Below are positions 13,486-64,000 of a stretch of DNA of 64,000 nt, piece by piece. Where the stretch lies: contig CAZEHO010000003.1 in NCBI GenBank assembly GCA_964511945.1, forward strand, positions 62,431 to 126,430, given 5' to 3'. Origin of the DNA: an uncultured Acidimicrobiia bacterium. GTDB taxonomy: Bacteria > Actinomycetota > Acidimicrobiia > Spongiisociales > UBA11373. Made by a program: the position numbers and the translations under genes. The notes below the pieces were generated by a model. The model was not told the DNA's origin, did no database searches, and saw nothing but the letters and a program-made list of their open reading frames with translations. Position 1 is the first letter of the stretch, and each line of letters begins with the position of its first letter.

Positions 13486-13508
13486 CCGTTCCCTGCGGGA
13501 CAGAGTGT

Positions 13509-24159: not shown

Positions 24160-24318
24160 GATGTTGATCGACCGGGGATCTCGTTCGGGAGTTGGTGGCG
24201 TATCCACGGGGAAGGAGCCTATCGAGCCGACCGGGGCAGGGCGTGATAGCGCTCTCCTTACCTCTATCACAGGACCCGCCGGGCAGACCGCATTCAGATC
24301 GGTACCATCACCGGTCCG

Positions 24319-26229: not shown

Positions 26230-26285
26230 GACCTGAACGTACCCCGTTCAGGATCAGCCGAATCCGGTTCGGGTACGGTGAGTCC

Positions 26286-42518: not shown

Positions 42519-43082
42519 ATGAAGATCACTCTCAAACTGGGTGTACTTGCGGTCGCGGCGCTGCTCCTCGTTGCCGCGTGCGGCGATACCGAGCCCGAGA
42601 CCGCATCCGCGCCGACCACATCGGCACCCGTGGCTGTCCCGGATGACACGCTGCCACCTAATCCGGCTGCCGGTGCCTGCTCGGAGGGCGACCCGGACTG
42701 CAACGACATCCCGGGCCTCGAGCCGGAGCCTCCGATCCTCGCCGACGAACCGGATCTCGGTGTCGATCCGGGGACCGGAAGCAGCGGCTTCATCGTCGGC
42801 GGCGGTCTCAGTGTCGAAGAGGCTCTCGGCGGCAACGCAACGGGTGTGATCGCCGTTTCGGGGTTCGTGGTCAGCGATGCGAGCGGCCATCGGCTCTGCG
42901 ACCTGCTGGCCGAGTCCATGCCACCGCAGTGCGGTGGAGCCTCGATCGACGTTGCGAATCTCGACATCGTCGACCCCGACGAACTCAAGAGCTCTCAGGG
43001 GGTGATCTGGACCGACTTCCCCGTCACCATCGTCGGTGAGATCGTCGACGGGGTCCTGATCCCGACTCCGGCGTCCGCCTAA
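42519..43082 (+). CDS. Small lipoprotein, unknown function
   Basis: Signal and lipobox (LLVAACG); several Cys; 187 aa. Confidence 0.6.
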   Translation: MKITLKLGVLAVAALLLVAACGDTEPETASAPTTSAPVAVPDDTLPPNPAAGACSEGDPDCNDIPGLEPEPPILADEPDLGVDPGTGSSGFIVGGGLSVEEALGGNATGVIAVSGFVVSDASGHRLCDLLAESMPPQCGGASIDVANLDIVDPDELKSSQGVIWTDFPVTIVGEIVDGVLIPTPASA

Positions 43083-43100
43083 CCCGGCAGTCCACCCGCT

Positions 43101-43131
43101 CAAAGCCCCGGGCCTGTGTCCCGGGGCTTTG
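43101..43131 (+). terminator. Hairpin terminator after the 42519-43082 gene
   Basis: CAAAGCCCCGG-gcctgtgtc-CCGGGGCTTTG, a perfect 11-bp stem 19 nt after the stop, ending in CTTTGG. Confidence 0.6.
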
Positions 43132-43306
43132 GCATGCGCCTTGGACAACCGTCTCTGCACGACTCAGGTGAGCTCCGCTCGCATCACCAGACCGGCACCA
43201 TCGACGTCGGCGGCACCGGACCTGCGCTCACCGATCAGTTCGTCAACGGCGCAGTCGGATGCTGATCTCCGGGAAGAGCCCGCGAGGCACTAGCCTCACC
43301 GCCACT

Positions 43307-43531
43307 ATGGACATCAGCATTGAATACTGCGTCGTCTGAAACTACGAACCGCGGGCGTCCAGTTTGGGCGCCGAAATCGAAAGAGCGATCCCCGAGGCTT
43401 CGGTGACGCTGATTCCCGGCGGGCGTGGCGACTTGATCGTCAAGCGCGGCGATGAGTTCGTTTGGGACAGGAAGGGCATGGGCAACATGTGGCCGGAGAC
43501 CGACGAGCTGATCGCCAAGCTCAAGGAGTAG
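43307..43531 (+). CDS. selW: SelW/Rdx-family selenoprotein (SelW-like). In-frame TGA at 43337-43339 is predicted to encode selenocysteine in a CxxU motif.
   Basis: Translation MDISIEYCVVU*NYEPRASSLGAEIERAIPEASVTLIPGGRGDLIVKRGDEFVWDRKGMGNMWPETDELIAKLKE, with Sec at the TGA. The frame stays GC3-rich and coding-like on both sides of the TGA. The IEYC..U redox motif and the C-terminal GG..(D/E)..V(W)(D/S)(R/K)K..G.(F/W)P pattern match Rdx/SelW proteins. A candidate SECIS hairpin (GGCGUC-CAGUUUG-GGCGCC) lies at 43354-43372, 15 nt 3' of the UGA. Confidence 0.7.
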
Positions 43532-43533
43532 CG

Positions 43534-44109
43534 CTACCCGCCGCGAGGGTTGTACACCTGGCCGTCGCTCGCCGCGAAGTCGCTATATACCCGGCACGCC
43601 TCATCGGTGAGCACTCCGTCGATCACTTCGACACCCCGTTCCGCCAGTTCGCCCTTCCACTCCGGGTGCACCGGACCCTCGTCGAACCCGGTGATCTGCT
43701 CCAGCTCCGGACCGCTCCCGGCAACGGCGAGCGACCGGACTCCCGACCACAGGGTGGCACCGAGGCACATGGCGCATGGCCGCCAGTTGACGACGAGTTG
43801 GTGTACCGGCATCCCGGACTCGCCGAGGTCGAAGGTCCCGAGCTGTTGCTGAGCGAGTGACAGTGCCATGACCTCGGCGTGCGCCGATGAGCAGTTCGAC
43901 GGTATGACACGGTTTACGCCGATCACGACGAGCTTCCCGCTGAGCTTCTCGAACACCCCGGCAGCAAACGGTCCACCGGTCCCGTGCTCGAAATTGAGAC
44001 GGGAGAACCGGATGACCTGGGCCATCCGGCGCTCGAGGTCGGGAAGGTGGCTGGGAAGACGCCGGTGCTCTTCGATCGCCCATTCGGGCATCGTCAGCGT
44101 GAACTCCAT
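43534..44109 (-). CDS. CMP/dCMP-type zinc-dependent nucleoside/nucleotide deaminase (TadA/guanine-deaminase-like)
   Basis: HAEVMAL and PCAMCLGA zinc-binding motifs. Confidence 0.8.
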   Translation of the reverse strand: MEFTLTMPEWAIEEHRRLPSHLPDLERRMAQVIRFSRLNFEHGTGGPFAAGVFEKLSGKLVVIGVNRVIPSNCSSAHAEVMALSLAQQQLGTFDLGESGMPVHQLVVNWRPCAMCLGATLWSGVRSLAVAGSGPELEQITGFDEGPVHPEWKGELAERGVEVIDGVLTDEACRVYSDFAASDGQVYNPRGG

Positions 44110-44187: not shown

Positions 44188-47100
44188 CTATTCCTTCCCT
44201 GATCCCGAGTCGGTGGACGCGGCCTCCCCCGGATCAGCGATCCCCGGAGCCGGACCTGGAGAGCTCCCCTGCTGTGGTGGCCCCTGCATAGTCTGACCCG
44301 AAGGAGGTGACGGCGGTGGAGGCGGAGGCGGGGGCGGGGTGGTCCCCGGCTTGACGGTCGGCGACAGCGGTTCGGCGGGCGGTGACGGCGCCGACGGGGT
44401 GATCGACTCCGACAGCCGATTGGCGTCCTCGGGTGAAAGCGACTGCAGGATTCGCTGGGCATCGGCCGCCCGCCCGTCGCGGACCGCCGCTTCGAGTTGC
44501 CCTCTCGCCTGTTCGAGACCGACCTGGTGGTCCACGGCGCTGGTCGCACCTTGGAGGCGTTCGGTCTCCAGGGTGTTCCTGATGTGGGTGAGGGTGTCGA
44601 TCGGCTGTCCGGTACGAGGGTCGGTGAGGTTCGGCGGCAGCTTGTCGAGCAGCTCCTGGATATCGGGATTGGACGAAGGGTCGAGGAGAGCGTCGACATC
44701 GCTGCCCGGCTGCAGCGGTCCGACCACCTCACGCACCTGATCGGTCGCCGCATCCAGTACCCGGGTGTTCATGCGCTCGAGGATGTCCGCCTCGACGGCA
44801 GCCCGGGTGTCCGGATCGAGTGAGTCCAGGTAGTCGCGAACCCGCGGGTTCTCGGCCAGCGTCGTTCGCGGGTCGGTGCTGGTGACCACCCGCTCGGCAT
44901 CGATGTCGCTGGGATCGAGCGGCGTATTCGGACCCGCCTCCGGCCCGAGGTGCTGCTCGAACGCGTCGCGGGTCTCATCGTCCAAGCCGTCCCAGAAGTC
45001 ATTGATCGGACCCGGGTTGCCGCCCTGCTGGGTCGACTGATCCATGGCCTCCTGCAACCTCACGACCAGGCCCTCGTTCTCGAAGATGGTCCACCCGGTA
45101 TCGCCGGCTCCCTGCAACCGCTCCGCCTCCAAGGTGTTGCGGATCTGTTCGAGCGGGTCGATCTGATCGCCGGTGTTCGGATCGGTCAGGCGATGGGGCA
45201 GCTGATCGAGCAACTCCTGCAGGTCTGGGTTCCGGGACGGGTCGAGGAGGACGTCGATCTCGTCACCCGGTCCGAGTGGTCCGACGATGTCGCGTACCCG
45301 GTCGGTGGCCGCCTCGATGACCCGGCCGTTCATCCGATCGAGGAGGCTTGCCTCGACCGCCGCTCTCGTCTCGTGATCCAGCGAGTCCAGGTAATCCCGG
45401 AGTTGTGGAGTCTCGATGAGGACGGCTCCGGGATCGTCGGCGGTAACGACCCGTTCCGGATCGAGCGCATCGGGTCGTCCGCCACCCGACGTCGGTCCCC
45501 CATCGCCCCCGGGTGGGAATCGTTCATCGAGATAGTCCCGCTCGGCGTCACTCAGACCTTCCCAGAACTTATCGACGGGTCCCGGGTCGCCGCCCTGCAG
45601 GCGCGACTGCTCCAACGCGTCCTGGAACTTGATGACGACACCCTCACCACGGAAGATCGTCCACGCCATCTCCTCGGCGACTTCCACCCGTTCTGCCTCG
45701 AGCACGTTGTGGATGTGGATGAGCGGATCGATCCGCTCGCCCGTCCTCGGATCCGTCAGGTGCTCGGGCAGGCGGTTGATCAGATCCTGCAGATCGGGAT
45801 TCGCCGATGGATCCAGCAGTCGATCGAGATCGGCGTCGGGCCCGATCGGCCCGATCACGTTACGGACCTGGTCGGTCGCTGAATCCAGCAGCCGGTCATT
45901 CAGCCGGTCGACCAGCTCCTGCGTCACTGCGATGGCGTCGCCGTGCGGCAGATCATTCAGCGCTTCGCGGACCGCATCGGATTGCAGGAGTTCATCGGGA
46001 TCGAAGAAGTCCTGCGGAGTACCCGACCCGCTCGGCTGCATCGGCGCCGATTCGCTGATGAGATCCCGCAGTCCGGACCAACTGCCGTCCTGCCACGCAC
46101 CCAGAATCCGCTCCACCGACATCCCGGCGTTGGCAAGGGCGGTCGCCAGCAGCAGTGCTTCTCCGACGAGTCCGGCCACCGAGAGCCGTACTGCTGCCGA
46201 CGGCGGCAAGCCGGATTCCCCGGCGAGCAGCTGCTGTGCAAGGGGATCGTTGCTCAGGTCGATGCCGTCGGTGGCCCCCCACATGGCGTTGACGGCCGAG
46301 ATGTCCCATTCGCCCCGTTCGTTGATGTTCTCGGCGGTTCGCACGACCTGCGGATCGGCCATACCGCCCGGGGTGAAGACCTCGCCCGACCCGGGCACGC
46401 CGTCGTTCTTTTCGCCGCAGAACGCGATGATCACGTCGGTCTGCACCTCGCCCTCCGGCGTCTCGGGACGAACGGCGATCACTTCGCCACCGGCCGTGAT
46501 CATGGTCTGCACCGATGTGTCGCCGGGCGTGAGCTGCAGTCCGATCGGCACGCGGATGTAAATGGTCTCCGCGGTTGAATTGGTTGTCCGCACCCGGATC
46601 GACGATCCGTAGTAGGAGCCGTTTCCGCGGAGTTCGACGGTCAGCCCGTCAACCTTGCCGGCGTCGGTGAACAGGTCCGAGAGGTCATGGACCGTGGCTC
46701 CGACTGGGGCCTGATCGACGGTTTCGGCCGTTGCGGTGCCGGGGAGGCTCAGCAGCAACCCCAGAGCGAGGACGGCGTAAACCGTTGTTCGCGCCTGCGC
46801 CGCGCCGAGGGCATTCGACCGCCCGAGCATGAGTCCGCCGAGCAGGGCGGCGCCGAAAAACGACCCGGCCGTCCCCAAGGGGATCAGCCCCGAGCGGTTG
46901 AGGGCGCCGGCCAGCTGCATCAGGGTGATCCCGGCTCCCCACCCGACGATGCCGAGCACGCTACGGCTGGCGAAGGCGGCTCCATCGGCGACCCGGATCA
47001 TCAACTGCCTGCCCTGGAAGACGCCAATGCCGAGACCGGCCGCCAGGCCCAACACGAGGTAGACGGGAGGCGTCTCGGCACCGTGGACCAGAGTCAGGAC

Positions 47101-47250
47101 GATCGCGGTAGCAGCCGAGAGCAGGAACCTGACCAGCTCCAGGCGGGGCCGGATCCGGGTTTCCCGCCGAACCATGAAGACCGCGAGGAGCAACGCGGCG
47201 ATCGACAGCGGGATCAGGACGATGCTGATGATTCGGGCGACGGCACCCAT
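44188..47250 (-). CDS. Large membrane protein: N-terminal multi-TM region, signal-like segment, three internal roughly 155-aa repeats, Pro-rich C-terminal tail
   Basis: 1020 aa. Repeats of D(S/A)ATDQVR(N/D/E)V(I/V)GP(I/L)GP..(D/E)(L/I)D.LLDPS.NPD(L/I)Q(D/E)L(I/L).(R/Q/K)LP..LTDP.TG..IDPL..I.N.LE.ER... The tail runs ...GTTPPPPPPPPPSPPSG. Confidence 0.65.
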   Translation of the reverse strand: MGAVARIISIVLIPLSIAALLLAVFMVRRETRIRPRLELVRFLLSAATAIVLTLVHGAETPPVYLVLGLAAGLGIGVFQGRQLMIRVADGAAFASRSVLGIVGWGAGITLMQLAGALNRSGLIPLGTAGSFFGAALLGGLMLGRSNALGAAQARTTVYAVLALGLLLSLPGTATAETVDQAPVGATVHDLSDLFTDAGKVDGLTVELRGNGSYYGSSIRVRTTNSTAETIYIRVPIGLQLTPGDTSVQTMITAGGEVIAVRPETPEGEVQTDVIIAFCGEKNDGVPGSGEVFTPGGMADPQVVRTAENINERGEWDISAVNAMWGATDGIDLSNDPLAQQLLAGESGLPPSAAVRLSVAGLVGEALLLATALANAGMSVERILGAWQDGSWSGLRDLISESAPMQPSGSGTPQDFFDPDELLQSDAVREALNDLPHGDAIAVTQELVDRLNDRLLDSATDQVRNVIGPIGPDADLDRLLDPSANPDLQDLINRLPEHLTDPRTGERIDPLIHIHNVLEAERVEVAEEMAWTIFRGEGVVIKFQDALEQSRLQGGDPGPVDKFWEGLSDAERDYLDERFPPGGDGGPTSGGGRPDALDPERVVTADDPGAVLIETPQLRDYLDSLDHETRAAVEASLLDRMNGRVIEAATDRVRDIVGPLGPGDEIDVLLDPSRNPDLQELLDQLPHRLTDPNTGDQIDPLEQIRNTLEAERLQGAGDTGWTIFENEGLVVRLQEAMDQSTQQGGNPGPINDFWDGLDDETRDAFEQHLGPEAGPNTPLDPSDIDAERVVTSTDPRTTLAENPRVRDYLDSLDPDTRAAVEADILERMNTRVLDAATDQVREVVGPLQPGSDVDALLDPSSNPDIQELLDKLPPNLTDPRTGQPIDTLTHIRNTLETERLQGATSAVDHQVGLEQARGQLEAAVRDGRAADAQRILQSLSPEDANRLSESITPSAPSPPAEPLSPTVKPGTTPPPPPPPPPSPPSGQTMQGPPQQGSSPGPAPGIADPGEAASTDSGSGKE
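44500..46020 (-). repeat. Three diverged tandem intragenic repeats (about 465 nt each) inside the 44188-47250 gene
   Basis: Protein-level triplication visible in the translation; the nucleotide copies are diverged. Confidence 0.6.
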
Positions 47251-49969: not shown

Positions 49970-52900
49970 CTACTTATAGATGCTGATCGAGCCGACCGCC
50001 CCGGAGCCGTCACCCGACCAATTGGTGGTGTCGTCACCCGGCTTACCGATCACGATCAGATCGCCGCCCGCTGCCACCGACCAACCCATGAAGTCGTCGG
50101 CGTCGGCGTCGTTGTCGTCCAGTCGAGTCTCGTACCAGGTGTCGTTAGTGGAGTGATGGAAGATGAAGGCCGCGCCGCCGTTCGTCGCCTCGCCGTCGTC
50201 CATCGAGGCGCCAACCACGACCCAGCGGCCGACGACCCCGACGGCACACCCGAAGTCGTCGCTGGTGGACGGGGTCGCGGGTTGCAGCATGGTGGCTTGG
50301 GACCATGCGGCTCCGCCCCAGTCGTAGACGTACGCAGCGCCGTGGTTCCCGCCGTAGCCGGTGGCCCCAACCACCAACCGGTCGCCGGAGACCGCCACCG
50401 CGGTTCCGAAACTGTCGTTGGCATCGCCGGCGGTGAGCTTGGCTTCGTTCCAGGCCGAACCGCTCCAGCGATAGGCGTAGGCCGCCCCGGCGCCGTCGCC
50501 GCTGGCGTCCTCACCGGCGGCACCCACCACCACGAAGTCGCCGGCCGTCGCCACTGCGGCACCGAATCGGTCATCGGACTCAGCGTCGGATGCCGTCAGC
50601 TTCGTCTCGACCCAGGCGGATCCATTCCAGTCGTAGACGTATACCGCGCCGCCGGGGGCATCCTTCGGAGCACCGACGATGATGCGATCGCCGTCGATGG
50701 CGACTGCGGCGCCGAACTGGTCGTTCGCCGTGCCGTCCGAAGCCTGGAGCGTGGCAGTCTTCGACCAGGTGCCTCCGCTGTTGGTGTAGACGTAGGCGGC
50801 GCCCTCGCTCCAATCCTGACCCGGTGCTCCCACAACGATGCGGTTGCCGGAAACGGCCACCGACCGGCCGAACTTCATCCAGGTCGGGGTCCCGACCGGG
50901 ACCGGTGCGTTGACAATGGCCTCATTCCAGGCGCCGCCGGCGCCGGGGGTGTAGATCTGGATCCGACCGTGGTTGCCCGAACCGGTGAAGTCGGCTCCTC
51001 CAACCACCGTTGCGCCGTCCGTCGCCACCGAGATCCCGTGGCTCTCCCAGGCGGCGTTGGCTCGATCGAACCATATCTCGAGCCAGTTCTTCGGGCCGAC
51101 GTCGAAGGTGACCGTTGCCGTGTTCGAGTCCTCGAAGCCGTCGCTGGCTCGATACGTGAAGGTGTCGCTGCCGATGAAGTCGCCTTCCGGGGTGTAGGTG
51201 AACGACCCATCGGCGCTCAGGTCGAGGGTGCCGTGGGCCGGGCTTGTTTCGGGCTGAACCCCGGCGGTCCCAGCATCGGTGTCGACGACCGTGAGGTCGT
51301 TGCCGTCGGGGTCGGTGTCGTTGGACAGGATGCCGGATGCAGCGTTGCGGCTGATCGGCCACTCCATCACCGTGGCTAACGGGCCATCGTTCACCGCCGT
51401 CGGTGGATCGTTGGGCGGGTTGATCGTGATGGTCACCGTCGCCACGTTCGATTCGAGGCTCCCGTCCGTTGCCCTGTAGGTGAAGGTGTCCTCGGTGGCC
51501 GTGCCGCCATCGTGGACGTAGGTGAACGTGCCGTCGAGGTTGAGGGTGAGGTCACCGTGATCGACGTTGCCTACCGGCTGGACGCCTGCGGTGCCCGCAT
51601 CGTTGTCGACCACCTGAAGCGCATCGCCGTTGGCATCGGTGTCGTTGTCGAGCACCCCGTTGACGACGAGAGTTTCGCCCTGCTCGACCGAGTAGCCGTC
51701 GTCGTTCGCCAGCGGCGCAACATTCACAGCCGGGATCACCTTGATCTTGATGCCGTCGCCGGGTCCTCCCGTGTTGTGGTAGTAGAGCGCGTTGTTGGCG
51801 CCCGGATTCACATACGGAGTGATCTCGATCCAACTCCAATGCCCGTCGCTTCCCTTCGTCACGGCATCCCACTCGATGTCCCAGTAGTAGGAGTCGTCGG
51901 TGAAGTAGCGCCACTCCGAGATCCGGGTCCCGTTGATGTCGAGCCGGCCCTGCCAGGAGCCGAACCGCCACGTATCCCACTCCCGCGGGACGCACCCGCC
52001 GAAGCCGTCGTTGTCGCAGCCGTAGTGGGCGACAAACACCGCGGTGTAGCTCGACGGGAGGGTGAACGGGTATTGGGTCGTGCCGAACGTATCCGTGCCG
52101 AGCCACATGACGTCGGCAGGCTCGATGGTCAGCGTCACCGTGGCCAGGTTCGAGTTGCCCGATCCGTCGGTCGCCCGGTACGTAAAAGAGTCTGCAGACG
52201 CCGCGGAGCCATCGTGGACGTACATGAAGGATCCGTCGGCATTCAGTGTGAGCGCACCATGGGCCGGCGGCGTGACCGGCGCAGGACCGGCAACGGTGAT
52301 CGGGTCGCTCCCGGGATCCGAGTCGTTGTCGAGCACCCCGTCGGCCGGGACGAACAGCGTGTCCTCCCGGTGCACCGTGTAGGCATCGTCGGCGGCACAC
52401 GGATCGCAGATGGTGATGGTGACCGTGGCGGGATCGGACAACGCGGTTCCGTCCCAGATCCGATAGGTGAACGAGTCCGCAGTGGTGTCCGAACCATCGT
52501 GGGTGTAGGTCACCCGGCCGCTGCCGTACACGGTTGCGTTGCCGTGCACCGGATTCGTGTAGGACCACACGGAGAGGGCATCGTCTTCGGCGTCCGCGTC
52601 GTTCTCGAGTACACCGGGAGCGGCGTCATCGATCGCCCCGCCCTTCGCCACCGCATACCCATCGTCCACAGCCACCGGGTCGTCGTTGACCGGGTTGATC
52701 GTGATCGTGACCGTGGCCTCGTTCGATTCGGCCGCGCCGTCGGTCGCCTTGTAGGTGAACGAATCCGTCGTCGTCTCGGAACCGTCGTGGGTGTAAGTGA
52801 ACGACCCGTCGGCGGCCAGGTTCAGGGTCCCGTGGGACGGCCCGCTCTGTGCCTGGGCGTCGACCACCTGCAGCGGATTCGGCCCGTCCGGGTCGATATC

Positions 52901-55900
52901 GTTGTCCAGCACCCCGTTCACGTTCAGGATCCCGCCCTCGTCGACGCTGTACCCATCGTCCACAGCCACCGGGTCGTCGTTGACCGGGTTGATCGTGATC
53001 GTGACCGTGGCCTCGTTCGATTCGGCCGCGCCGTCGGTCGCCTTGTAGGTGAACGAATCCGTCGTCGTCTCGGAACCGTCGTGGGTGTAAGTGAACGACC
53101 CGTCGGCGGCCAGGTTCAGGGTCCCGTGGGACGGCCCGCTCTGTGCCTGGGCGTCGACCACCTGCAGCGGATTCGGCCCGTCCGGGTCGATATCGTTGTC
53201 CAGCACCCCGTTCACGTTCAGGGTCCCGCCCTCAGTGACGGCGTGGGAATCGTCGACCACCGTCGGAGGATCGTTCACCGGAGTGATCGTCAGAGTGACC
53301 GTGGCGGGGTCGGAATCATCGGTTCCGTCGTTGGCGGTGTAGGTGAACGAATCCGTCGTGGTCTCGGAACCGTCGTGGGTGTAGCTGAACGTGCCGTTGG
53401 CATTGAGCGTGAACGCGGCATCGTGATCGGGTTCGTCGACGACCACCGCCGTCAACCGACCCCCTTCCACGTCGGTGTCGTTGGCGAGCACTCCGTCCGG
53501 CACGAGGTAGTCGAGCCCCCCGCCTTCAAAGAGCGTGGTGTCACCTTCCGACCCGGCGGCGGGATCGTCGACGGCAGCCGGCGGGTCGTTGACTGGAATG
53601 CCGAGGATGTCGTAGCAGCCAACCTCTGTGGCACCGTCGAATCCGGTGATCTTGACCGGGAAGTCCTCACCGCCGTCGTGGGTGTAGGAGAAAGTGCCGT
53701 CGGCATTCACATTGAATGCGGCGGCAAAGGCCGCGCCCTCGGCGTGCGTGGTCGGCGCACCGAAGTCGCCGTCGAAGCTGCCGCCTTCGGTGACCGGCGC
53801 TTGATCGCAGGTCTGGACTCCGTCGAGCGGGTTGCTGACCGTGCGCTCGATTGGCGTCGGATCCTGCTCGTCCAGCTCGATGTCCCACACGATGACGGGA
53901 TCGGGATCGATCACCTGATCGGGCGGAACCGAGAACACCAGATCGTTGATGTGGGCGGCGAACTCCTTGGGGATGGTGAGCACATACTCGAAGGGGTCGG
54001 AACCGGGTCCGCCGCCCACCGCCCACACCCGGATGACCATCTGCAGGAAGTGTCCGACCGATCCGTCGCCCGCGTTCGTGCGGATCGCCCGGTACCTGGT
54101 CCCGGTGGCCACCGTGCCCGCGCCGTTCTGGGTCACTATCTCTTCGGTCTCGGCGGTGACCGTCTGGGCAGGCGCAGTCATGGTGGCGCTGTCGAGGTCG
54201 TCCTCCACCGCCGCATCGCCGGGTGTCGAGTCGGGGTCCGCTTGATCGGAGGCCGCGACGGACGCCGTGTTTTCGATCTGTCCTTCACCACTGACCCGAG
54301 TCGTGATCTGGAGGCTCGCGGACGCACCCGGTGCAAGTGCACCGACCGTCCACACGCCGGTCGCGGCGTCGTAGGTGCCGCCCCCATCATCCGAGATGTA
54401 GTTCAACCCGTCGGGCAGTTGGTCGCTCACGGAGACTCCGGTGGCCTGGCCGGGCCCGCCGTTGCTCACCACGATCGTGAAGACGACTGCATCGAGGTAG
54501 CCGGGGTTCGCTTCGTCGACGCTCTTGGTAAGGGAAAGGTCGGCGGAAGTCCCGGCAGGGTCGTAGCCCTGACATTCACTGATAGTGCCGGCCCAGTTGC
54601 ACACCTGGAAGGGGTCCGAGTCGCCCCAGGAGCCGATCCCGTAGCGGTCGAGCCGTGCAGCCGAGAGCTCCCATGCGGCGCCGGTATCGACGTAGATGAG
54701 CACATCGATCCCGGGCGGATCCTCGTTCGGTTTGTAGTCACTGCGGCGCGGATAGAACGGCTCGTACACCATGGCGGCGCGTTGACCGCCGACGATCCCG
54801 ACGGCCCACTGGCCCCGAAACTCGAGCGGCACCCGCAGGAAGCTCCGGTTGATCCCACCGAGCCAGGCCGCCAGTCCGGCAGGCATCTGGGGTTGCGGGT
54901 TCGTTCCCGGGTTCGCGATCCACCCTGCAAACGCATCCACTGCAGCGATCAGATCCGCCGGGGCACCGTCGAGAATCACCGAAGTCTCGGGCTGCTCACA
55001 CGTCGCGAACACCGGACCGTCGATGCACGACTGGGTGCCCCACGACCCAATGATCAGATCGACACCAATCCCACCGTCGACCTGATCCGGCGGATCCCCC
55101 TCCTTGGTGCCGCGGGCTTTGACAATGTCTTCACCCTGCCCCCCAATCAGGGTCTCCCCACCATCCGTCGATCCAAAGATCCGATCGTTCTGGCCCCCAC
55201 CATCCATGTAGTCGCGCCCGGCGCCACCAAAGATGATGTCCTTGCCGGTCCCCCCGAAGATCTGATCGTTGCCCTTCCCGCCGTCCAGACCAACCGCCCC
55301 TCCAGCCATGACTGATTCGAATTGCTGCAGATTCACGGACGGGTCGAGATTCGGCGGGTAATCGTGACCCGGACCACCGTAGATCTTGTCCGGCCCGTTG
55401 CCGCCGAAGATCTGATCCCGACCCTTGTTCCCAGACAGGTTGTCGGGACCCGGACCCCCAAAGATGATGTCGTCGCCGGAGTTCCCCCAAATCCAGTCCG
55501 CTCCACCATGGGCCCCGTAGTCGGCGATCCCGATTCCGTACCACTGGCCATTCACGAACGCCTTGCCGCCACCGATCAGGATGTCGTTGCCGCCAAACCC
55601 GCAAATCATGTCATTGCCCAACCCGGCGTCAATGAAGTCGTCGCCCGACGTGCCGGCGATCACATCGTCGCCGTCCGTTCCGGGGAAGACCACGTCGTCC
55701 GGCCACTCCTCGGGGACCACGTGAGTGGCCTTTTGCCCGCCGCAGTAGGTCTCTGCCGAGGCCACACCGCCCACCATCACCAGCACCGACGCAATCACCG
55801 CCGACACCAGAGCGACCGAGGAGAGATGACGACAGCGGTTGCGCGACGGGGAGGGGTAGCTCGGCACCCTGGTTGTCTCGGACGTGGCCGGGAAGGGGAC

Positions 55901-56017
55901 GCGTTCCGATGTGAGACGGGAACGCCTCGATCTCAATGGCCGCTCTCTTATCCAGTGCAGCACGAAAGGCCTCATTCGCGCTCTCGCCAATCTCCCCCAT
56001 CTCCTGTAAGGGTGCAA
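49970..56017 (-). CDS. Giant (about 2000 aa) secreted multi-repeat adhesin-like protein. Domains in order: RTX-type Ca-binding GGxGxD repeats, a DUF11 domain, tandem cadherin-like/VCBS (T-95-type) repeats, C-terminal FG-GAP beta-propeller repeats.
   Basis: GNDMICGFGGNDILIGG and GGPGPDNLSGNKGRDQIFGGNGPDKIYGG (RTX nonapeptides). LSLTKSVD...VFTIVVSNGGPG (DUF11). Many VNDPP.AVDD...TYTHDGSETTTDSFTY..TDG repeats. FGAAVA..GD..VVGAP (FG-GAP) repeated about 6 times. Signal-like segment LSSVALVSAVIASVLVMVGGVASA. The exact start is uncertain (ATG 55975 or a nearby GTG). Confidence 0.8.
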   Translation of the reverse strand: MHPYRRWGRLARARMRPFVLHWIRERPLRSRRSRLTSERVPFPATSETTRVPSYPSPSRNRCRHLSSVALVSAVIASVLVMVGGVASAETYCGGQKATHVVPEEWPDDVVFPGTDGDDVIAGTSGDDFIDAGLGNDMICGFGGNDILIGGGKAFVNGQWYGIGIADYGAHGGADWIWGNSGDDIIFGGPGPDNLSGNKGRDQIFGGNGPDKIYGGPGHDYPPNLDPSVNLQQFESVMAGGAVGLDGGKGNDQIFGGTGKDIIFGGAGRDYMDGGGQNDRIFGSTDGGETLIGGQGEDIVKARGTKEGDPPDQVDGGIGVDLIIGSWGTQSCIDGPVFATCEQPETSVILDGAPADLIAAVDAFAGWIANPGTNPQPQMPAGLAAWLGGINRSFLRVPLEFRGQWAVGIVGGQRAAMVYEPFYPRRSDYKPNEDPPGIDVLIYVDTGAAWELSAARLDRYGIGSWGDSDPFQVCNWAGTISECQGYDPAGTSADLSLTKSVDEANPGYLDAVVFTIVVSNGGPGQATGVSVSDQLPDGLNYISDDGGGTYDAATGVWTVGALAPGASASLQITTRVSGEGQIENTASVAASDQADPDSTPGDAAVEDDLDSATMTAPAQTVTAETEEIVTQNGAGTVATGTRYRAIRTNAGDGSVGHFLQMVIRVWAVGGGPGSDPFEYVLTIPKEFAAHINDLVFSVPPDQVIDPDPVIVWDIELDEQDPTPIERTVSNPLDGVQTCDQAPVTEGGSFDGDFGAPTTHAEGAAFAAAFNVNADGTFSYTHDGGEDFPVKITGFDGATEVGCYDILGIPVNDPPAAVDDPAAGSEGDTTLFEGGGLDYLVPDGVLANDTDVEGGRLTAVVVDEPDHDAAFTLNANGTFSYTHDGSETTTDSFTYTANDGTDDSDPATVTLTITPVNDPPTVVDDSHAVTEGGTLNVNGVLDNDIDPDGPNPLQVVDAQAQSGPSHGTLNLAADGSFTYTHDGSETTTDSFTYKATDGAAESNEATVTITINPVNDDPVAVDDGYSVDEGGILNVNGVLDNDIDPDGPNPLQVVDAQAQSGPSHGTLNLAADGSFTYTHDGSETTTDSFTYKATDGAAESNEATVTITINPVNDDPVAVDDGYAVAKGGAIDDAAPGVLENDADAEDDALSVWSYTNPVHGNATVYGSGRVTYTHDGSDTTADSFTYRIWDGTALSDPATVTITICDPCAADDAYTVHREDTLFVPADGVLDNDSDPGSDPITVAGPAPVTPPAHGALTLNADGSFMYVHDGSAASADSFTYRATDGSGNSNLATVTLTIEPADVMWLGTDTFGTTQYPFTLPSSYTAVFVAHYGCDNDGFGGCVPREWDTWRFGSWQGRLDINGTRISEWRYFTDDSYYWDIEWDAVTKGSDGHWSWIEITPYVNPGANNALYYHNTGGPGDGIKIKVIPAVNVAPLANDDGYSVEQGETLVVNGVLDNDTDANGDALQVVDNDAGTAGVQPVGNVDHGDLTLNLDGTFTYVHDGGTATEDTFTYRATDGSLESNVATVTITINPPNDPPTAVNDGPLATVMEWPISRNAASGILSNDTDPDGNDLTVVDTDAGTAGVQPETSPAHGTLDLSADGSFTYTPEGDFIGSDTFTYRASDGFEDSNTATVTFDVGPKNWLEIWFDRANAAWESHGISVATDGATVVGGADFTGSGNHGRIQIYTPGAGGAWNEAIVNAPVPVGTPTWMKFGRSVAVSGNRIVVGAPGQDWSEGAAYVYTNSGGTWSKTATLQASDGTANDQFGAAVAIDGDRIIVGAPKDAPGGAVYVYDWNGSAWVETKLTASDAESDDRFGAAVATAGDFVVVGAAGEDASGDGAGAAYAYRWSGSAWNEAKLTAGDANDSFGTAVAVSGDRLVVGATGYGGNHGAAYVYDWGGAAWSQATMLQPATPSTSDDFGCAVGVVGRWVVVGASMDDGEATNGGAAFIFHHSTNDTWYETRLDDNDADADDFMGWSVAAGGDLIVIGKPGDDTTNWSGDGSGAVGSISIYK
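52750..53345. repeat. Perfect or near-perfect 294-bp tandem duplication inside the giant adhesin gene (two identical 98-aa cadherin-like repeat units)
   Basis: Nucleotide stretches 52797-52935 and 53091-53229 are identical (the shadow ORFs 52797..53048 and 53091..53342 share 46 identical N-terminal residues). The minus-strand protein repeats NVNGVLDNDIDPDGPNPLQVVDAQAQSGPSHGTLNLAADGSFTYTHDGSETTTDSFTYKATDGAAESNEATVTITINPVNDDPVAVDDGY exactly twice. Confidence 0.8.
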
Positions 56018-60960: not shown

Positions 60961-62034
60961 TCAGCCACTGATTCGAACCGGAACCCTCTTCCCACCCCAG
61001 GCTCCCGGCTCAGGTTCGAACACTCCGGAGCACCGGGTACCGCATCCTTGACAGGCACCGGCACCGTCGAGGCCCCACGCACTGAGGTGATAGCGGCTGC
61101 GGACGATCAAGACGCGGCCACACTCGTGGCAATAGGTGCTCTCGGCAGCCGGGTCGTGCACGTTGCCGACGTACACGTGGCGCAGCCCGTTGTCGATTCC
61201 GATGGCTCGGGCCCTTCGCAGTGTTGCCGCCGGTGTCGGCGGAGAATCGGTCATCCTGAAGTCGGGATGGAACGCGCTGAAGTGCACGGGCACTTCCGGT
61301 CCGAGGTGTTCGACGATCCACGTGGTGAGCGCGTCCACCTCCCCGTCGGAGTCGTTGTATCCGGGAATGAGCAGCGTGGTCACTTCGAGCCAGGTCCTGC
61401 TGCCGGCCACGTACTCGAGCGTGTCCAGAACGACGCCGAGGCGCCCTCCGCAGGTGCGCCGGTAGAAGTCCTCGTTGAAGCTCTTGAGATCGATGTTGGC
61501 CGCATCGATGTGTCCGTAGAACTCCGCTCTCGGCTCCGGGGTGACGTACCCGGCGGTCACGGCGACGGTGGCAACGCCCTCCTCATGGCAGGCGGCGGCA
61601 ACATCGATGGCGTACTCATGGAAGACGACCGGATCGTTGTAGGTGAAGGCGACGCTGCGGCACTCGAGTTGGCGAGCGCGTCGGGCGATCGCCTGCGGTG
61701 TCGCCTGCTCGCCCAGTCGGTCGAACTCACGAGCCTTCGAGATCTCCCAGTTCTGACAGAACCGGCAGGCGAGGTTGCAGCCGGCTGTGCCGAACGACAG
61801 CACCGGTGTGCCGGGGAGGAAGTGGTTGAGCGGCTTCTTCTCGATGGGGTCGATGCAGAAGCCACTGGAACGGCCATACGTCGTGAGCACGATCTCATCG
61901 TCGTGACGGGCGCGAACGAAGCACAGCCCGCGCTGTCCGTCGTGCAGCTTGCAGAACCGGGGGCACAGGTCGCACTGGATCCGGCCGTCATCGAGATCGT
62001 GCCAGTAGCTGGTGGAGACAATCGAGGCACTCAT
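60961..62034 (-). CDS. AmmeMemoRadiSam system radical SAM enzyme
   Basis: CIDPIEKKPLNHFLPGTPVLSFGTAGCNLACRFCQNWEISK (CxxxCxxC radical SAM cluster with a family-specific flank). ATG 62034 overlaps the upstream radical SAM gene's stop as ATGA. Confidence 0.8.
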   Translation of the reverse strand: MSASIVSTSYWHDLDDGRIQCDLCPRFCKLHDGQRGLCFVRARHDDEIVLTTYGRSSGFCIDPIEKKPLNHFLPGTPVLSFGTAGCNLACRFCQNWEISKAREFDRLGEQATPQAIARRARQLECRSVAFTYNDPVVFHEYAIDVAAACHEEGVATVAVTAGYVTPEPRAEFYGHIDAANIDLKSFNEDFYRRTCGGRLGVVLDTLEYVAGSRTWLEVTTLLIPGYNDSDGEVDALTTWIVEHLGPEVPVHFSAFHPDFRMTDSPPTPAATLRRARAIGIDNGLRHVYVGNVHDPAAESTYCHECGRVLIVRSRYHLSAWGLDGAGACQGCGTRCSGVFEPEPGAWGGKRVPVRISG

Positions 62035-62996
62035 GCGACGGCTCCATCGATGCGCCACAGGCCGGCCCGGCGGGCGGCGTCGTGGGCTGCGGTGAGTTCA
62101 TCGCTGCGGGGCCTGCGGTTGATGTCGAGATGGCGGGGGCTGGTCGGAACCCGGTGAGCAGGCCGGTACTGACCCATGATGTTGATGTAGGTGTCCGCTG
62201 AGAGATCATGGAGCCACTCGAAGATGGCGGCGGACTCGTCGATCAGGCCCGGCATCACCAGGTGGCGGATCAGGACACCGCGGCGGGCGAGGCCGTCGGA
62301 CCCGAATCGCAGCGGGCCAACCTGGCGGTGCATCTCAGCAATCGCAGCCCTGGCGGCGTCGGGGTAATCGGCGGCCCGCAGCAACCGGCGCGCGGTATCC
62401 GCCTCCCACACCTTGAAGTCGGGCATGTAGATGTCGACCAGTCCGTCCATCAATTGCAGTGAACTCAGCGCGTCGTACGCCGAGGTGTTGTAGACGATCG
62501 GGATCTCGAGCCCGAGCGGCACCGCCAGGGCGATGGCCTCGACGAGCTCGGGGGCGACGTGTTCCGGGGTCACGAAGTTGATGTTGTGGCACCCGGCGCC
62601 CTGTAGCCCGAGCATCAGATCGGCGATTTGCTCTGCGGTCATCTCCCGTCCGGCGCCGCCGGCCGAGATGTCCCAGTTCTGACAGAACACACACTTGAGA
62701 TTGCAGTAGGAGAAGAAGATGGTGCCCGACCCGCGCCGGCCCGACAGGCATCGTTCCTCCCCGTGATGGGGGGCGGCCTGGGCGACGATCGCGTTCCGGC
62801 CGGTGTGGCAGACGCCGCGTTCGTCGGCCAGCCGATCGACGCTGCAGTCGCGGGGACAGGCGCGACAGTTACCGAGTTCCCGCCGGGCGGCTTCCACCTT
62901 GCCGGGCAGGAGCCCGCGACGGGCGGTGCGCAGGTAGGCGGGCTCGAAGCGGCCGATCAGGAATCGCTCGTCGAGTCCCGCCGCTCTCGGGTTCAT
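62031..62996 (-). CDS. PflX-like (COG1313) radical SAM protein
   Basis: SGTIFFSYCNLKCVFCQNWDIS radical SAM motif; 321 aa; paralogous to the downstream AmmeMemoRadiSam radical SAM gene. Confidence 0.75.
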   Translation of the reverse strand: MNPRAAGLDERFLIGRFEPAYLRTARRGLLPGKVEAARRELGNCRACPRDCSVDRLADERGVCHTGRNAIVAQAAPHHGEERCLSGRRGSGTIFFSYCNLKCVFCQNWDISAGGAGREMTAEQIADLMLGLQGAGCHNINFVTPEHVAPELVEAIALAVPLGLEIPIVYNTSAYDALSSLQLMDGLVDIYMPDFKVWEADTARRLLRAADYPDAARAAIAEMHRQVGPLRFGSDGLARRGVLIRHLVMPGLIDESAAIFEWLHDLSADTYINIMGQYRPAHRVPTSPRHLDINRRPRSDELTAAHDAARRAGLWRIDGAVA

Positions 62997-63324: not shown

Positions 63325-64000
63325 TCAGGGGAAGATCTTGCCCGGGTTGAGAATCCCCGCCGGATCAAACGTCGAGCGGATCCTGCGCATCAGGTCCAAT
63401 TGCTCGGGCTCCATTGCCATCGGCAGATAACTCCGGCGTGTCACCCCCACCCCGTGCTCACCGGTGATCTGGCCGCCCAGGCCCAGCGCCAGAGCGAAGA
63501 TCTCCTCACTGATCGCCGGAGTCAGCGCCTTCCAGCGGTGATCGGCGATCTCGTCCTTCAGAACGTTGATGTGAATGTTCCCGTCGCCGGCATGACCGAA
63601 GCAGACGATCCGAACGTCGTGGCGGGCGGCCGTCTGCTTGATGCCTGCAAGCAGGGTCGGGATTTCGGCCCGGGGAACGACGACGTCCTCCATGTGGTTG
63701 ATCGGGCTCTCGTTGTTGAGCGCATCGATGATCTTGCGGCGGGCGTCCCACAGCCGGTCGCGGGTGGCCGAGTCGTCGGCGACCAGGACCTCACGGGCGC
63801 CGTGGGCGAGGCACAGCTCTCCGACGATCTCGAGATCTGCGTCGACGGCCTCCCGGCCGTTCCCGTCGAGCTGAATGAGCAAATGGGCTGCGGCGTCGTT
63901 GAAGGGAACCTCCGCGCCGGTGAGCCGATCCACAGCGGCGATGCTGTCGCGCTCCATGAACTCGATCGCCGTCGGGAGTATCCGCCTGGCGAGGATCGCC
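63325..64000 (-). CDS. FAD-linked oxidase (GlcD / D-lactate dehydrogenase-like), C-terminal part. The N-terminus lies beyond the window end.
   Basis: FAD-oxidase C-terminal domain pattern ...ITGEHGVGVTRRSYL...DLMRRIRSTFDPAGILNPGKIF. The frame is open to nt 64000. Confidence 0.7.
   Translation of the reverse strand, partial: AILARRILPTAIEFMERDSIAAVDRLTGAEVPFNDAAAHLLIQLDGNGREAVDADLEIVGELCLAHGAREVLVADDSATRDRLWDARRKIIDALNNESPINHMEDVVVPRAEIPTLLAGIKQTAARHDVRIVCFGHAGDGNIHINVLKDEIADHRWKALTPAISEEIFALALGLGGQITGEHGVGVTRRSYLPMAMEPEQLDLMRRIRSTFDPAGILNPGKIFP

What the first reader, a model, noticed from the sequence alone, without database searches (positions are those of the whole stretch)
43307..43531. 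Unannotated SelW/Rdx-like selenoprotein gene with in-frame UGA (CxxU) and a candidate bacterial SECIS hairpin
A 75-codon GC3-rich frame (ATG 43307 to TAG 43529-31) is interrupted only by TGA at 43337-39, so standard ORF calling misses it. The conceptual protein MDISIEYCVV[U]NYEPRASSLGAEIERAIPEASVTLIPGGRGDLIVKRGDEFVWDRKGMGNMWPETDELIAKLKE has the Rdx/SelW fold signature, with the TGA exactly at the second redox position (C-V-V-U). A 6-bp GC hairpin (GGCGUC / GGCGCC, loop CAGUUUG containing G and U) starts 15 nt after the UGA, the usual place for a bacterial SECIS. Selenoproteins are sparse in Actinobacteria.
Basis: partly seen in the sequence, partly recalled or inferred. Interest (0 to 1): 0.85.

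Follow-up and report, generated by a model that had tools for sequence, protein, structure and literature searches.

The report
SelW-like selenoprotein gene with SECIS
This is a real but ordinary small redox-protein gene whose in-frame UGA most likely encodes selenocysteine; gene callers cut it short, but it belongs to a bacterial selenoprotein family known since 2004-2005.

Summary
Window 43307-43531 (+) is a 74-codon frame with one in-frame TGA at 43337-39, at the second position of a C-V-V-U motif. A hairpin lies at 43354-43372.

- With U read as C, the protein passes the curated cut-offs of Pfam Rdx (54.3 vs 22.6 bits) and NCBIfam TIGR02174 CXXU_selWTH (36.4 vs 34.2).
- The TGA is kept in all 6 close-relative contigs and in all 53 homologous loci from GTDB genomes of many phyla.
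- The hairpin meets all four criteria of the published bacterial SECIS model.
- Covariation supports the hairpin, including a pair of third codon positions.
- Both sides of the TGA are under purifying selection.
- TGA is also the commonest ordinary stop in the window, so the code is not reassigned.

Not shown: selA, selB, selC and selD are absent from the 64 kb window and from about 11 kb of flanks. The rest of the genome could not be searched.

The organism is probably an uncultured high-GC Acidimicrobiia. Another order of that class has recently been reported to have Sec machinery.

SelW-like CxxU proteins were the most abundant selenoprotein family in the Sargasso Sea survey. This is therefore a new, mis-annotated member of a known kind. 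Interest is low to moderate.

The parts
43307..43531 (+). Complete coding sequence of a 74-residue SelW-like (Rdx family) selenoprotein: ATG 43307, Sec-UGA 43337-39, stop TAG 43529-31.
   Evidence: Translation. Pfam PF10262 at 54.3 bits, E = 1.6e-14; TIGR02174 at 36.4 bits against a cut-off of 34.2. pN/pS is 0.25-0.28 for codons 26-74 and pN = 0 for codons 1-25. The same start peptide MDISIEYC is preceded by a GGAGG Shine-Dalgarno in most homologues from other phyla.
43328..43339 (+). Redox motif codons TGC GTC GTC TGA = Cys8-Val-Val-Sec11 (CxxU).
   Evidence: Aligns with the CTQC of SAV_2001 (PDB 3DEX) and Atu0228 (2FA8). TGA is at this codon in 6 of 6 close contigs and 53 of 53 GTDB loci.
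43337..43339 (+). In-frame UGA, inferred to be the selenocysteine codon.
   Evidence: TGA is also the ordinary stop of 14 of 25 confident genes in the window, so the recoding is local and not a change of genetic code.
43354..43372 (+). Bacterial SECIS hairpin inside the coding sequence. 5' arm 43354-43360 (GGCGUCC), apical loop 43361-43365 (AGUUU), 3' arm 43366-43372 (GGGCGCC). 21 nt lie between the UGA and the loop.
   Evidence: Folds at -14.2 kcal/mol, z = -2.96. Meets all four bSECIS criteria quoted in PMC13188914. Across 53 distinct sequences, 88.7% of cells are paired against 19-60% in slid registers; the covariation score is 0.229 against 0.106 in shuffles, reached by 0 of 500. Pairs 30-42 and 31-41 each give p about 5e-5 by column shuffling; the loop G and the last loop U are invariant. 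The region from codon 6 to about codon 23 is nucleotide-invariant in three lineages whose downstream pS is 0.42-0.47.
43291..43296 (+). Conserved TAGCCT box (TANNNT, -10-like) 10 nt upstream of the ATG. There is no Shine-Dalgarno. Possible promoter of a leaderless or near-leaderless mRNA (inferred only).
   Evidence: CACTAGCCTC / CACTAACCTC is the only conserved upstream element among the window, L003 and L004. The four Actinomycetota loci also lack an SD. The sigma-70 consensus scan finds nothing here.
43403..43531 (+). The part that public gene callers report: a 42-aa ORF from GTG 43403. It is an annotation artefact of reading UGA as stop.
   Evidence: P0003 = MTLIPGG...KLKE, from NCBI and Logan. 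Relatives are called as 55-aa ORFs that start at the TTG inside the SECIS.

Best explanation
The locus encodes a 74-residue SelW-like (Rdx family) selenoprotein.

**Translation.** It starts at ATG 43307. At codon 11 the UGA is decoded as selenocysteine rather than stop. The mRNA folds, 15-33 nt downstream, into a 7-bp hairpin with apical loop A-G-U-U-U, a bacterial SECIS. By the established bacterial mechanism (E. coli fdhF; SelB-SECIS structures), SelB.GTP.Sec-tRNA(Sec) binds the loop G/U of such a hairpin and delivers Sec to the ribosomal A site when the UGA arrives.

**Product.** It is a small protein that carries Cys8 and Sec11 as a CxxU redox pair. In the solved Cys-form homologues this motif lies near the N-terminus. 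The pair most likely cycles between a selenenylsulfide and a reduced thiol/selenol, so the protein acts as a thiol-dependent oxidoreductase. Its substrate is unknown.

**Shown here:** the frame, family membership, conservation of the UGA, the SECIS structure with covariation, purifying selection, and standard use of TGA as stop elsewhere in the window.

**Inferred:** actual Sec insertion, the presence of selABCD elsewhere in the genome, redox function, and a leaderless transcript.
For: - Frame and motif.
- Family: PF10262 E = 1.6e-14; TIGR02174 above its cut-off.
- Best solved relative is SAV_2001 (3DEX), E = 2.9e-7, with the UGA aligned to the second Cys of CTQC.
- UGA conserved in L001-L006, which are independent assemblies from several samples at 80-100% protein identity.
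- UGA conserved in 53 of 53 GTDB loci. These were retrieved by the peptide MDISIEYC, which does not include the Sec position. They come from Acidobacteriota, Planctomycetota, KSB1, Myxococcota, Marinimicrobia, Desulfuromonadales and Actinomycetota.
- The parallel pattern VVCNYEPR, which requires Cys, found no Cys form.
- In an exhaustive search, 10 of the 11 short relatives retrieved for inspection are N-truncated ORFs. Only one is a full-length Cys form, at 38% identity.
- SECIS: all four bSECIS criteria are met. Covariation is strong, including between third codon positions.
- There are no substitutions between codon 6 and about codon 23 in three lineages that differ at 42-47% of downstream synonymous sites.
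- An SD sequence precedes the same ATG in most homologues.
- TGA terminates 14 of 25 other genes in the window.
- In one homologous locus (L042), selA and selB lie 3-6 kb from the gene.
- Sec machinery is reported for another Acidimicrobiia order.
Against: - No tRNA-Sec, SelA, SelB or SelD in the 64 kb window, nor in about 7.8 kb to the left and about 3.6 kb to the right. This is under 3% of a typical genome, so it is uninformative, but the key requirement stays untested.
- No Rfam hit. This is expected, since bacterial SECIS elements are poorly represented in Rfam.
- In a 64-nt context the fold energy is not better than shuffles.
- The column-shuffle p-values are not corrected for phylogeny.
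- No second selenoprotein gene was found in the window.
- Bacterial SelW-like proteins are listed in the 2026 review as 'predicted with high confidence', not as experimentally verified.
Confidence: 0.88

Rival explanations
1. Pseudogene: a former CxxC Rdx gene inactivated by a TGC/TGT-to-TGA nonsense mutation and now decaying.
For: Gene callers see only truncated ORFs. Sec machinery was not found in the sequence available. One distant homologue (L053) does carry a frameshift.
Against: - TGA is at the same codon in 59 of 59 loci across many phyla.
- pN/pS is 0.25-0.28 downstream and pN = 0 upstream of the TGA.
- The hairpin is conserved and covaries.
- Cys forms are rare among the nearest relatives.
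Confidence: 0.02
2. Sequencing or assembly error: the true codon is TGC/TGT and the protein is an ordinary CxxC Rdx protein.
Against: The identical TGA appears in independent contigs from different runs and assemblies: SRR8146443, SRR24302413, SRR6963308, ERZ23491188, ERZ27256790 and ERZ27256780. It also appears in 53 GTDB genomes.
Confidence: 0.01
3. The UGA is a true stop. The functional product is the downstream ORF (55 aa from TTG 43364, or 42 aa from GTG 43403), with or without a separate 10-residue upstream peptide.
For: These are the ORFs that public gene callers report.
Against: - The downstream ORF would lack the N-terminal segment that aligns with the solved Rdx structures, including the CxxC/U redox motif.
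- TTG 43364 lies inside the SECIS loop/stem and has no SD.
- MDISIEYC plus an SD upstream is conserved across phyla.
- The HMM match runs continuously across the UGA, residues 3-73.
Confidence: 0.03
4. The full-length protein is made, but the UGA is read by something other than Sec-tRNA(Sec). Examples are near-cognate Cys or Trp read-through, or Cys charged on tRNA(Sec) when selenium is scarce, because this organism lacks or has lost part of the Sec pathway.
For: Sec machinery is unverified for this genome. From general knowledge, Cys can be inserted at UGA through the Sec pathway under selenium limitation in some systems.
Against: - A conserved SelB-type hairpin with an invariant loop G and U makes sense only if SelB is used.
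- TGA is the main ordinary stop, so general read-through would be harmful.
- Relatives in the same class have complete Sec machinery.
Confidence: 0.06

Closest known systems
Bacterial SelW-like selenoproteins (CxxU; Pfam PF10262 Rdx, NCBIfam TIGR02174 CXXU_selWTH). Described in Geobacter sulfurreducens, Desulfotalea psychrophila and Symbiobacterium thermophilum, and as the most abundant selenoprotein family of the Sargasso Sea (PMC1088965, PMC1794560).
   Same: - Size of about 75 aa, with an N-terminal IEYCxxU motif.
- Sec at the second redox position.
- SECIS hairpin immediately downstream of the UGA, inside the ORF, with G in a small apical loop.
- Few Cys homologues among close relatives.
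   Different: - The window clade is only 54% identical or less to any GTDB representative found.
- It has its own C-terminal half (GRGDLIVKRGDE...MWPETDELIA).
- It lacks a Shine-Dalgarno.
- It sits in a probable high-GC Acidimicrobiia.
SAV_2001 of Streptomyces avermitilis (PDB 3DEX) and other solved Cys-form Rdx proteins (Atu0228 2FA8; 2OJL, 2OKA, 2P0G, 2OBK).
   Same: Same family by sequence (E = 2.9e-7 for 3DEX). The alignment covers residues 3-63, with IEYC..C.. aligned to IEYCVVU.
   Different: Those proteins are about 105 residues and have CxxC (Cys, not Sec), so they need no recoding signal. The fold of the window protein was not modelled here.
Mammalian selenoprotein W (SELENOW) and the eukaryotic Rdx group (SelT, SelH, SelV, Rdx12).
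   Same: Same Pfam family and the same CxxU redox motif near the N-terminus. A thiol-oxidoreductase role is proposed (PMC1088965).
   Different: Eukaryotic genes carry a kink-turn SECIS in the 3' UTR, read by SBP2/eEFSec. Here the SECIS is a simple hairpin inside the ORF, of the bacterial SelB type.
E. coli fdhF/fdnG SECIS-SelB recoding system.
   Same: What it works like: a hairpin directly 3' of the UGA with an exposed G-U in the apical loop. The loop here is A-G-U-U-U, 21 nt after the UGA, within the 16-37 nt range of the consensus model.
   Different: There is no sequence similarity to the fdhF element and no bulged U in the stem. SelB of this organism was not identified.
NF041051 SelTWH_Campy (Campylobacter-type SelT/W/H equivalog).
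   Same: Best-scoring NCBIfam model (68.7 bits, E = 3.8e-19).
   Different: The score is below the curated equivalog cut-off of 88 bits, so it is not a member of that equivalog.

Membership tests
Rdx / SelW-like family (PF10262; TIGR02174 CXXU_selWTH) | Profile-HMM score above the curated family cut-off over the whole domain | tested here: met
   PF10262: 54.3 bits against 22.6, residues 3-73 on profile positions 2-73 of 74. TIGR02174: 36.4 bits against 34.2. Sec was replaced by Cys for scoring.
Rdx / SelW-like family (PF10262; TIGR02174 CXXU_selWTH) | CxxC/CxxU redox motif near the N-terminus, aligned with that of characterised members | tested here: met
   C8-V-V-U11 aligns with the CTQC of 3DEX and 2FA8. 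CxxU is present in all 53 GTDB homologues.
Rdx / SelW-like family (PF10262; TIGR02174 CXXU_selWTH) | Thioredoxin-like alpha/beta fold | not tested
The only support is sequence alignment to solved Rdx structures.
Bacterial selenoprotein gene (SelB/SECIS-dependent UGA recoding) | In-frame UGA aligned with Cys in homologues (Sec/Cys pair) | tested here: met
   The UGA aligns with Cys in 3DEX and 2FA8 and with Cys in the Cys-form P0018, CKPC.
Bacterial selenoprotein gene (SelB/SECIS-dependent UGA recoding) | UGA conserved in orthologues, with coding conservation on both sides | tested here: met
   59 of 59 loci. pN = 0 upstream; pN/pS is 0.25-0.28 downstream.
Bacterial selenoprotein gene (SelB/SECIS-dependent UGA recoding) | bSECIS consensus: apical loop of 3-9 nt, upper stem of 4-16 bp, G in the first two loop positions, 16-37 nt from UGA to loop, MFE of -7.5 kcal/mol or lower (PMC13188914) | tested here: met
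   Loop AGUUU (5 nt, G at position 2, matching the N1-G-[G|U]-N-N2 pattern). Stem of 7 bp. Spacing of 21 nt. MFE of -14.2 kcal/mol.
Bacterial selenoprotein gene (SelB/SECIS-dependent UGA recoding) | The structure is supported by covariation, not only by one sequence | tested here: met
   Pair 30-42, which joins two third codon positions, shows CG 39, UG 4, GC 3, UA 3, AU 1 and GU 1. 51 of 53 are paired against 40.0 expected. The shuffle controls are not corrected for phylogeny.
Bacterial selenoprotein gene (SelB/SECIS-dependent UGA recoding) | selA, selB, selC (tRNA-Sec) and selD present in the same genome | not testable with these tools
   Absent from the window (ARAGORN; tblastn with E. coli SelA/B/D gives a best E of 0.19; Pfam of the 30 largest ORFs). 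Absent from about 11 kb of flanks.
Bacterial selenoprotein gene (SelB/SECIS-dependent UGA recoding) | Selenium demonstrably incorporated at the UGA position | not testable with these tools
   Requires 75Se labelling or mass spectrometry.
NF041051 SelTWH_Campy equivalog | Score at or above the equivalog cut-off of 88 bits | tested here: not met
   68.7 bits. It is related to, but not a member of, this equivalog.

The most novel reading that the evidence does not exclude
In this high-GC Acidimicrobiia lineage the selenoprotein is translated from a leaderless or near-leaderless mRNA. There is no Shine-Dalgarno, and a conserved TANNNT box lies 10 nt before the ATG. The Sec-UGA would then lie only about 30 nt, and the SECIS about 48 nt, from the 5' end. 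The gene may also have been acquired horizontally: its N-terminus and SECIS resemble the Acidobacteriota/Myxococcota type, not the versions in the other Actinomycetota loci, which are 37-44% identical and in L055 have a shifted hairpin. This would be a natural test case for SelB-dependent recoding during the first rounds of elongation on a leaderless transcript.
Probability: 0.2. Interest if true: 0.4.

Novelty: new member of a known kind. Interest (0 to 1): 0.25.

Why it matters
- **Annotation.** It corrects a public annotation: a 42-aa 'hypothetical' fragment is really a 74-aa selenoprotein.
- **A marker of Sec decoding.** It implies that this uncultured, probably Acidimicrobiia bacterium decodes UGA as Sec. 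That in turn predicts selABCD and further mis-called selenoprotein genes elsewhere in its genome.
- **A reference set.** It yields 53 distinct sequences, counting the window and two close relatives, of one SelW-like subfamily with a clean, covarying SECIS. The set could serve as a covariance model, which Rfam currently lacks for bacterial SECIS elements.
- **Limits.** It does not open a new biological question. The family, the motif and the recoding mechanism are well known, and the biochemical function of bacterial SelW-like proteins is as unknown as before.

Tried and rejected
1. Rfam at gathering thresholds over the whole window found nothing.
2. ARAGORN found no tRNA in the window and no tRNA-Sec within 10 kb of the gene in any of the 53 related loci.
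3. A single-sequence word-indexed homologue search gave only 3 truncated hits.
It was rerun with the exact 63-aa post-UGA segment.
5. A scan of the window for other coding frames interrupted by TGA found only antisense frames and gene junctions.
6. Synteny between the window and the 53 GTDB loci: none.
7. Organism identity by exact look-ups gave no names or accessions; the NCBI record is not shown.
8. A literature search for the run and sample accessions found nothing.
9. A plasmid tblastn with the S9 peptidase was uninformative: at most 44% identity, with mixed phyla.
10. Both metagenome-contig scans (clade-specific peptides, then the exact 50-nt UGA-SECIS string) found nothing.
11. Window-edge walking:
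   - The right-edge ORF 63325-63957 is not on record.
   - The left flank (L061) and right flank (L064) hold no sel genes.
12. The syntenic position next to Lon in two related Acidimicrobiia contigs has no conserved synteny and no SelW-like gene.
13. The sigma-70 promoter scan of 43000-43700 found no site. Its one terminator-like hit, at 43436-43453, lies inside the CDS and is regarded as chance.
14. A genome-wide UGA reassignment (code 4 or 25) was considered and rejected, because TGA ends 14 of 25 confident genes.

Full report
**1. The observation**

Window 43307-43531 on the + strand translates to MDISIEYCVV*NYEPRASSLGAEIERAIPEASVTLIPGGRGDLIVKRGDEFVWDRKGMGNMWPETDELIAKLKE*. The only internal stop is the TGA at 43337-39, and the terminal TAG is at 43529-31. 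Standard ORF listing shows only a 55-aa ORF from TTG 43364.

The window has 66.3% G+C. The post-TGA part of the frame has GC1/GC2/GC3 of 0.58/0.44/0.84, the coding pattern of this genome.

GGCGUC (43354-59) pairs with GGCGCC (43367-72). One further C-G pair (43360/43366) gives a 7-bp stem and the loop AGUUU (43361-65). Taken alone, the 26-nt hairpin is more stable than shuffles (-14.2 kcal/mol, z = -2.96, 2 of 200). In a 64-nt context the energy is ordinary for this composition (z = -0.07). One sequence alone would not establish the structure.

**2. Family**

With Sec written as Cys, the protein matches:
- Pfam Rdx (PF10262) end to end: E = 1.6e-14, 54.3 bits against a gathering score of 22.6.
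- NCBIfam TIGR02174 'CXXU_selWTH': 36.4 bits against 34.2.
- NF041051 (Campylobacter-type), the best-scoring model, but below its equivalog cut-off: 68.7 bits against 88.

Among solved structures the best match is SAV_2001 of Streptomyces avermitilis (3DEX, E = 2.9e-7), followed by Atu0228 (2FA8). In both, the window's UGA aligns with the second Cys of a CTQC motif.

**3. Conservation of the UGA**

The word-indexed protein search returned only three N-terminally truncated ORFs of 55, 55 and 42 aa. Gene callers produce exactly this result from Sec genes.

The DNA behind these hits comes from six contigs in five or more independent runs or assemblies. All carry TGA at the same codon.

A scan of one genome per GTDB species returned 53 loci from these groups:
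- Acidobacteriota (Thermoanaerobaculia, Sulfomarinibacteraceae)
- Planctomycetota
- KSB1
- Myxococcota
- Marinimicrobia
- Desulfuromonadales
- four Actinomycetota MAGs

All of these loci carry the peptide MDISIEYC, which lies upstream of the Sec position and so does not bias the result. All 53 have TGA at the CxxU position. The second pattern used in that scan (VVCNYEPR) required a Cys codon and brought in no Cys form.

An exhaustive phmmer search used the exact 63 residues after the UGA against 1.84 billion representatives. It gave 17 hits at E of 0.001 or better, six of which were much longer proteins (695-3046 aa). Of the 11 short hits retrieved for inspection, 10 are N-truncated ORFs of 39-62 aa. 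One is a full-length Cys form (CKPC, 38% identity). This agrees with the published remark that SelW-like selenoproteins have few Cys homologues (PMC1794560).

**4. The SECIS**

The published consensus model for bacterial SECIS elements requires four things (PMC13188914):
- an apical loop of 3-9 nt on an upper stem of 4-16 bp;
- a G in the first two loop positions, usually as N1-G-[G|U]-N-N2;
- 16-37 nt between the UGA and the loop;
- an MFE of -7.5 kcal/mol or lower.

The window has loop A-G-U-U-U, a 7-bp stem, 21 nt of spacing and -14.2 kcal/mol. All four criteria are met.

I aligned 53 distinct sequences without gaps (A3) and counted pairs for the named helix:

| Measure | Named helix | Control |
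|---|---|---|
| Cells forming a standard pair | 88.7% | 19-60% with the 3' arm slid by 1-3 columns |
| Covariation score | 0.229 | 0.106 in shuffles (0 of 500 reach it) |
| Cells changed on both sides | 19 | 7.0 expected |

The helix is symmetric about one codon, so pairs 27-45, 30-42 and 33-39 each join two third codon positions.
- Pair 30-42 shows CG 39, UG 4, GC 3, UA 3, AU 1 and GU 1. 51 of 53 are paired against 40.0 expected (p about 5e-5).
- Pair 31-41 has 46 of 53 paired against 35.1 expected (p about 5e-5).
- The loop G and the last loop U are invariant. The base after the G is U or G in 51 of 53.

These shuffle controls do not correct for relatedness. The slid-register control does, and it agrees.

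The window's own stem differs from the family consensus by a swapped pair: G-C where most have C-G, and U-G where most have G-C.

Within the close clade, the stretch from codon 6 to about codon 23 has no substitution at all in three lineages. Downstream synonymous divergence among the same lineages is 0.42-0.47. This is the expected trace of an RNA constraint overlaid on the coding sequence.

The Acidimicrobiia MAG L055 uses a hairpin shifted 4 nt upstream, with loop CGUGA. This accounts for some of the 'unpaired' cells in the fixed-register count.

**5. Is the upstream part translated?**

- pN is 0 for codons 1-25, and pN/pS is 0.25-0.28 for codons 26-74.
- Most homologues outside Actinomycetota have a GGAGG Shine-Dalgarno 5-9 nt before the same ATG.
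- The window frame has an upstream in-frame ATG at 43259. Nothing upstream of a short box is conserved among the window, L003 and L004, and every homologue starts at MDISIEYC.
- The window clade and the four Actinomycetota loci lack an SD. The only conserved upstream element is CAC-TAGCCT-C (TAACCT in L003), a TANNNT box 10 nt before the ATG. A leaderless or near-leaderless mRNA is a reasonable inference, but it is untested. The sigma-70 consensus scan finds nothing there.

**6. Alternatives excluded**

- **Sequencing error:** excluded by the independent assemblies.
- **Pseudogene:** excluded by the conservation and selection data.
- **Reassigned genetic code:** excluded, because TGA ends 14 of 25 confident genes in the window.
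- **Downstream-only ORF:** it would lack the N-terminal segment of the Rdx domain and the redox motif. Its TTG start lies inside the hairpin.

**7. What could not be shown**

The window has no tRNA gene. Six-frame tblastn with the E. coli proteins found no SelA, SelB or SelD homologue (best E = 0.19). Pfam scans of the 30 largest genuine ORFs found none either. No second TGA-interrupted coding frame was found.

About 7.8 kb beyond the left edge (L061) and about 3.6 kb beyond the right edge (L064) also hold none. This is a small fraction of a genome and says nothing either way. The NCBI record (a 172,968-bp contig) is not exposed by the tools.

Indirect support:
- In the Phycisphaerae MAG L042, selA and selB lie 3-6 kb from its SelW-like gene.
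- A hairpin with an invariant G/U loop is hard to explain without SelB.

**8. Organism**

Lon protease relatives at 78-80% identity that carry an organism label are 'Acidimicrobiia bacterium' ten times, Actinomycetota twice and Acidobacteriota twice.

An F420-dependent LLM oxidoreductase above the TIGR03564 cut-off and the SD-less starts are consistent with this.

The window is therefore probably from an uncultured high-GC Acidimicrobiia.
- The 2006 survey listed Actinobacteria among the three phyla richest in selenoprotein families, although its richest example there was Symbiobacterium (PMC1794560).
- Sec-trait transfers among actinobacteria are documented (PMC5029168).
- A 2026 preprint reports selA/B/C/D and about 5 selenoproteins in every Actinomarina genome. 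Actinomarina is also in Acidimicrobiia. The commonest family there is an 'uncharacterised' 78-aa protein (bioRxiv 10.64898/2026.04.03.716425).

**9. Comparison with the known, and verdict**

Bacterial SelW-like CxxU selenoproteins were the most abundant selenoprotein family in the Sargasso Sea data, with 48 genes (PMC1088965). The 2026 review lists them under PF10262 as 'predicted with high confidence'.

The window gene is a member by every criterion I could test. The untested criteria are the thioredoxin-like fold, the Sec machinery of this genome and actual selenium incorporation.

It is a new, mis-annotated member of a known kind. I put confidence that it is a genuine Sec-encoding gene at about 0.88.

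Interest is low to moderate, at 0.25:
- It is a sound annotation correction.
- It is a marker of Sec decoding in this lineage.
- The family alignment is a ready-made bacterial SECIS model.
- A specialist would not be surprised by any of it.

**10. Local context**

- The gene sits between a lipoprotein-like gene (42519-43082, +) and a convergent CMP/dCMP-deaminase-family gene (43534-44109, -).
- The lipoprotein-like gene is followed by an 11-bp terminator-like hairpin at 43102-43130.
- The deaminase gene's stop codon is 2 nt from the selenoprotein's stop codon.
- This arrangement is kept in the close relatives.
- There is no sign of an operon partner that would indicate a substrate.

Noticed in passing
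window 43291-43306; also 24294-24318 and 26261-26285: The SelW-like gene and several other genes in the window have no Shine-Dalgarno but have a TANNNT box 6-10 nt before the start codon (TAGCCT, TACCAT, TACGGT). This suggests frequent leaderless transcripts, as in many Actinomycetota.
   Followed up: partly
L042:3662-6930 (Phycisphaerae MAG DAORAL010000028.1): selA (43% identical to E. coli, E = 4e-88) and selB (30%, E = 4e-70) lie 3-6 kb from that genome's SelW-like selenoprotein gene at 10001-10216. This is the only one of the 53 loci where Sec machinery lies next to the gene.
   Followed up: partly
L054 (CAXQPB010000193.1, labelled Nitrosopumilus sp. MAG): The contig has 66.8% G+C and carries a bacterial-type SelW-like gene with an in-ORF SECIS. 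From general knowledge, Nitrosopumilus genomes are about 33-34% G+C, so this contig is almost certainly mis-binned.
   Followed up: partly
L053:10001-10240 (Sulfomarinibacteraceae MAG): This SelW-like copy keeps the UGA and SECIS but needs a +1 frameshift after about residue 33 to continue the conserved protein. It is either an assembly indel or a decaying copy.
   Followed up: partly
L055:4350-4395 (Acidimicrobiia MAG): Its SECIS hairpin sits 4 nt closer to the UGA than in the rest of the family, with loop CGUGA and 17 nt of spacing. The element has shifted register within the same coding context.
   Followed up: partly
window 44188-47250 (-): A 1020-aa protein with N-terminal membrane segments, three internal repeats of about 190 aa (each containing ...LLDPSxNPDLQELLxxLPxxLTDPxTGxxIDPL...LEAERL...) and a Pro-rich C-terminus. 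It has no Pfam or NCBIfam match and is conserved next to the deaminase gene in L001.
   Followed up: no
window 49970-56017 (-): A 2015-aa surface-type giant protein with Big_9, cadherin-like, FG-GAP, DUF11 and RTX calcium-binding repeats.
   Followed up: no
window 60961-62996 (-): An AmmeMemoRadiSam-system radical SAM enzyme (TIGR04337, 613 bits) is preceded by a second radical SAM gene that overlaps it by 28 nt. The AmmeMemo partner proteins were not looked for.
   Followed up: no
window 7755-9008, 12064-14777; L061:5743-7536; L064:381-2770: Gene content typical of an anaerobic or facultative lifestyle. It includes a LarA-type lactate racemase, an NfnAB-like Fe-S flavoprotein pair, an aldehyde:ferredoxin oxidoreductase (AFOR) and two HGD-D dehydratase subunits. 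Published surveys find selenoproteins commonest in such niches.
   Followed up: no
window 43102-43130 and 43529-43536: An 11-bp GC-rich hairpin follows the upstream lipoprotein-like gene. Its structure is conserved in L003 and L004 but its sequence is not. The selenoprotein gene and the convergent deaminase-family gene have stop codons only 2 nt apart, which leaves no room for separate terminators.
   Followed up: partly
bioRxiv 10.64898/2026.04.03.716425 (literature): The commonest predicted Actinomarina selenoprotein is a 78-aa family 'with no UniRef90 hit'. Its size and class suggest it could be the same SelW-like family.
   Followed up: no
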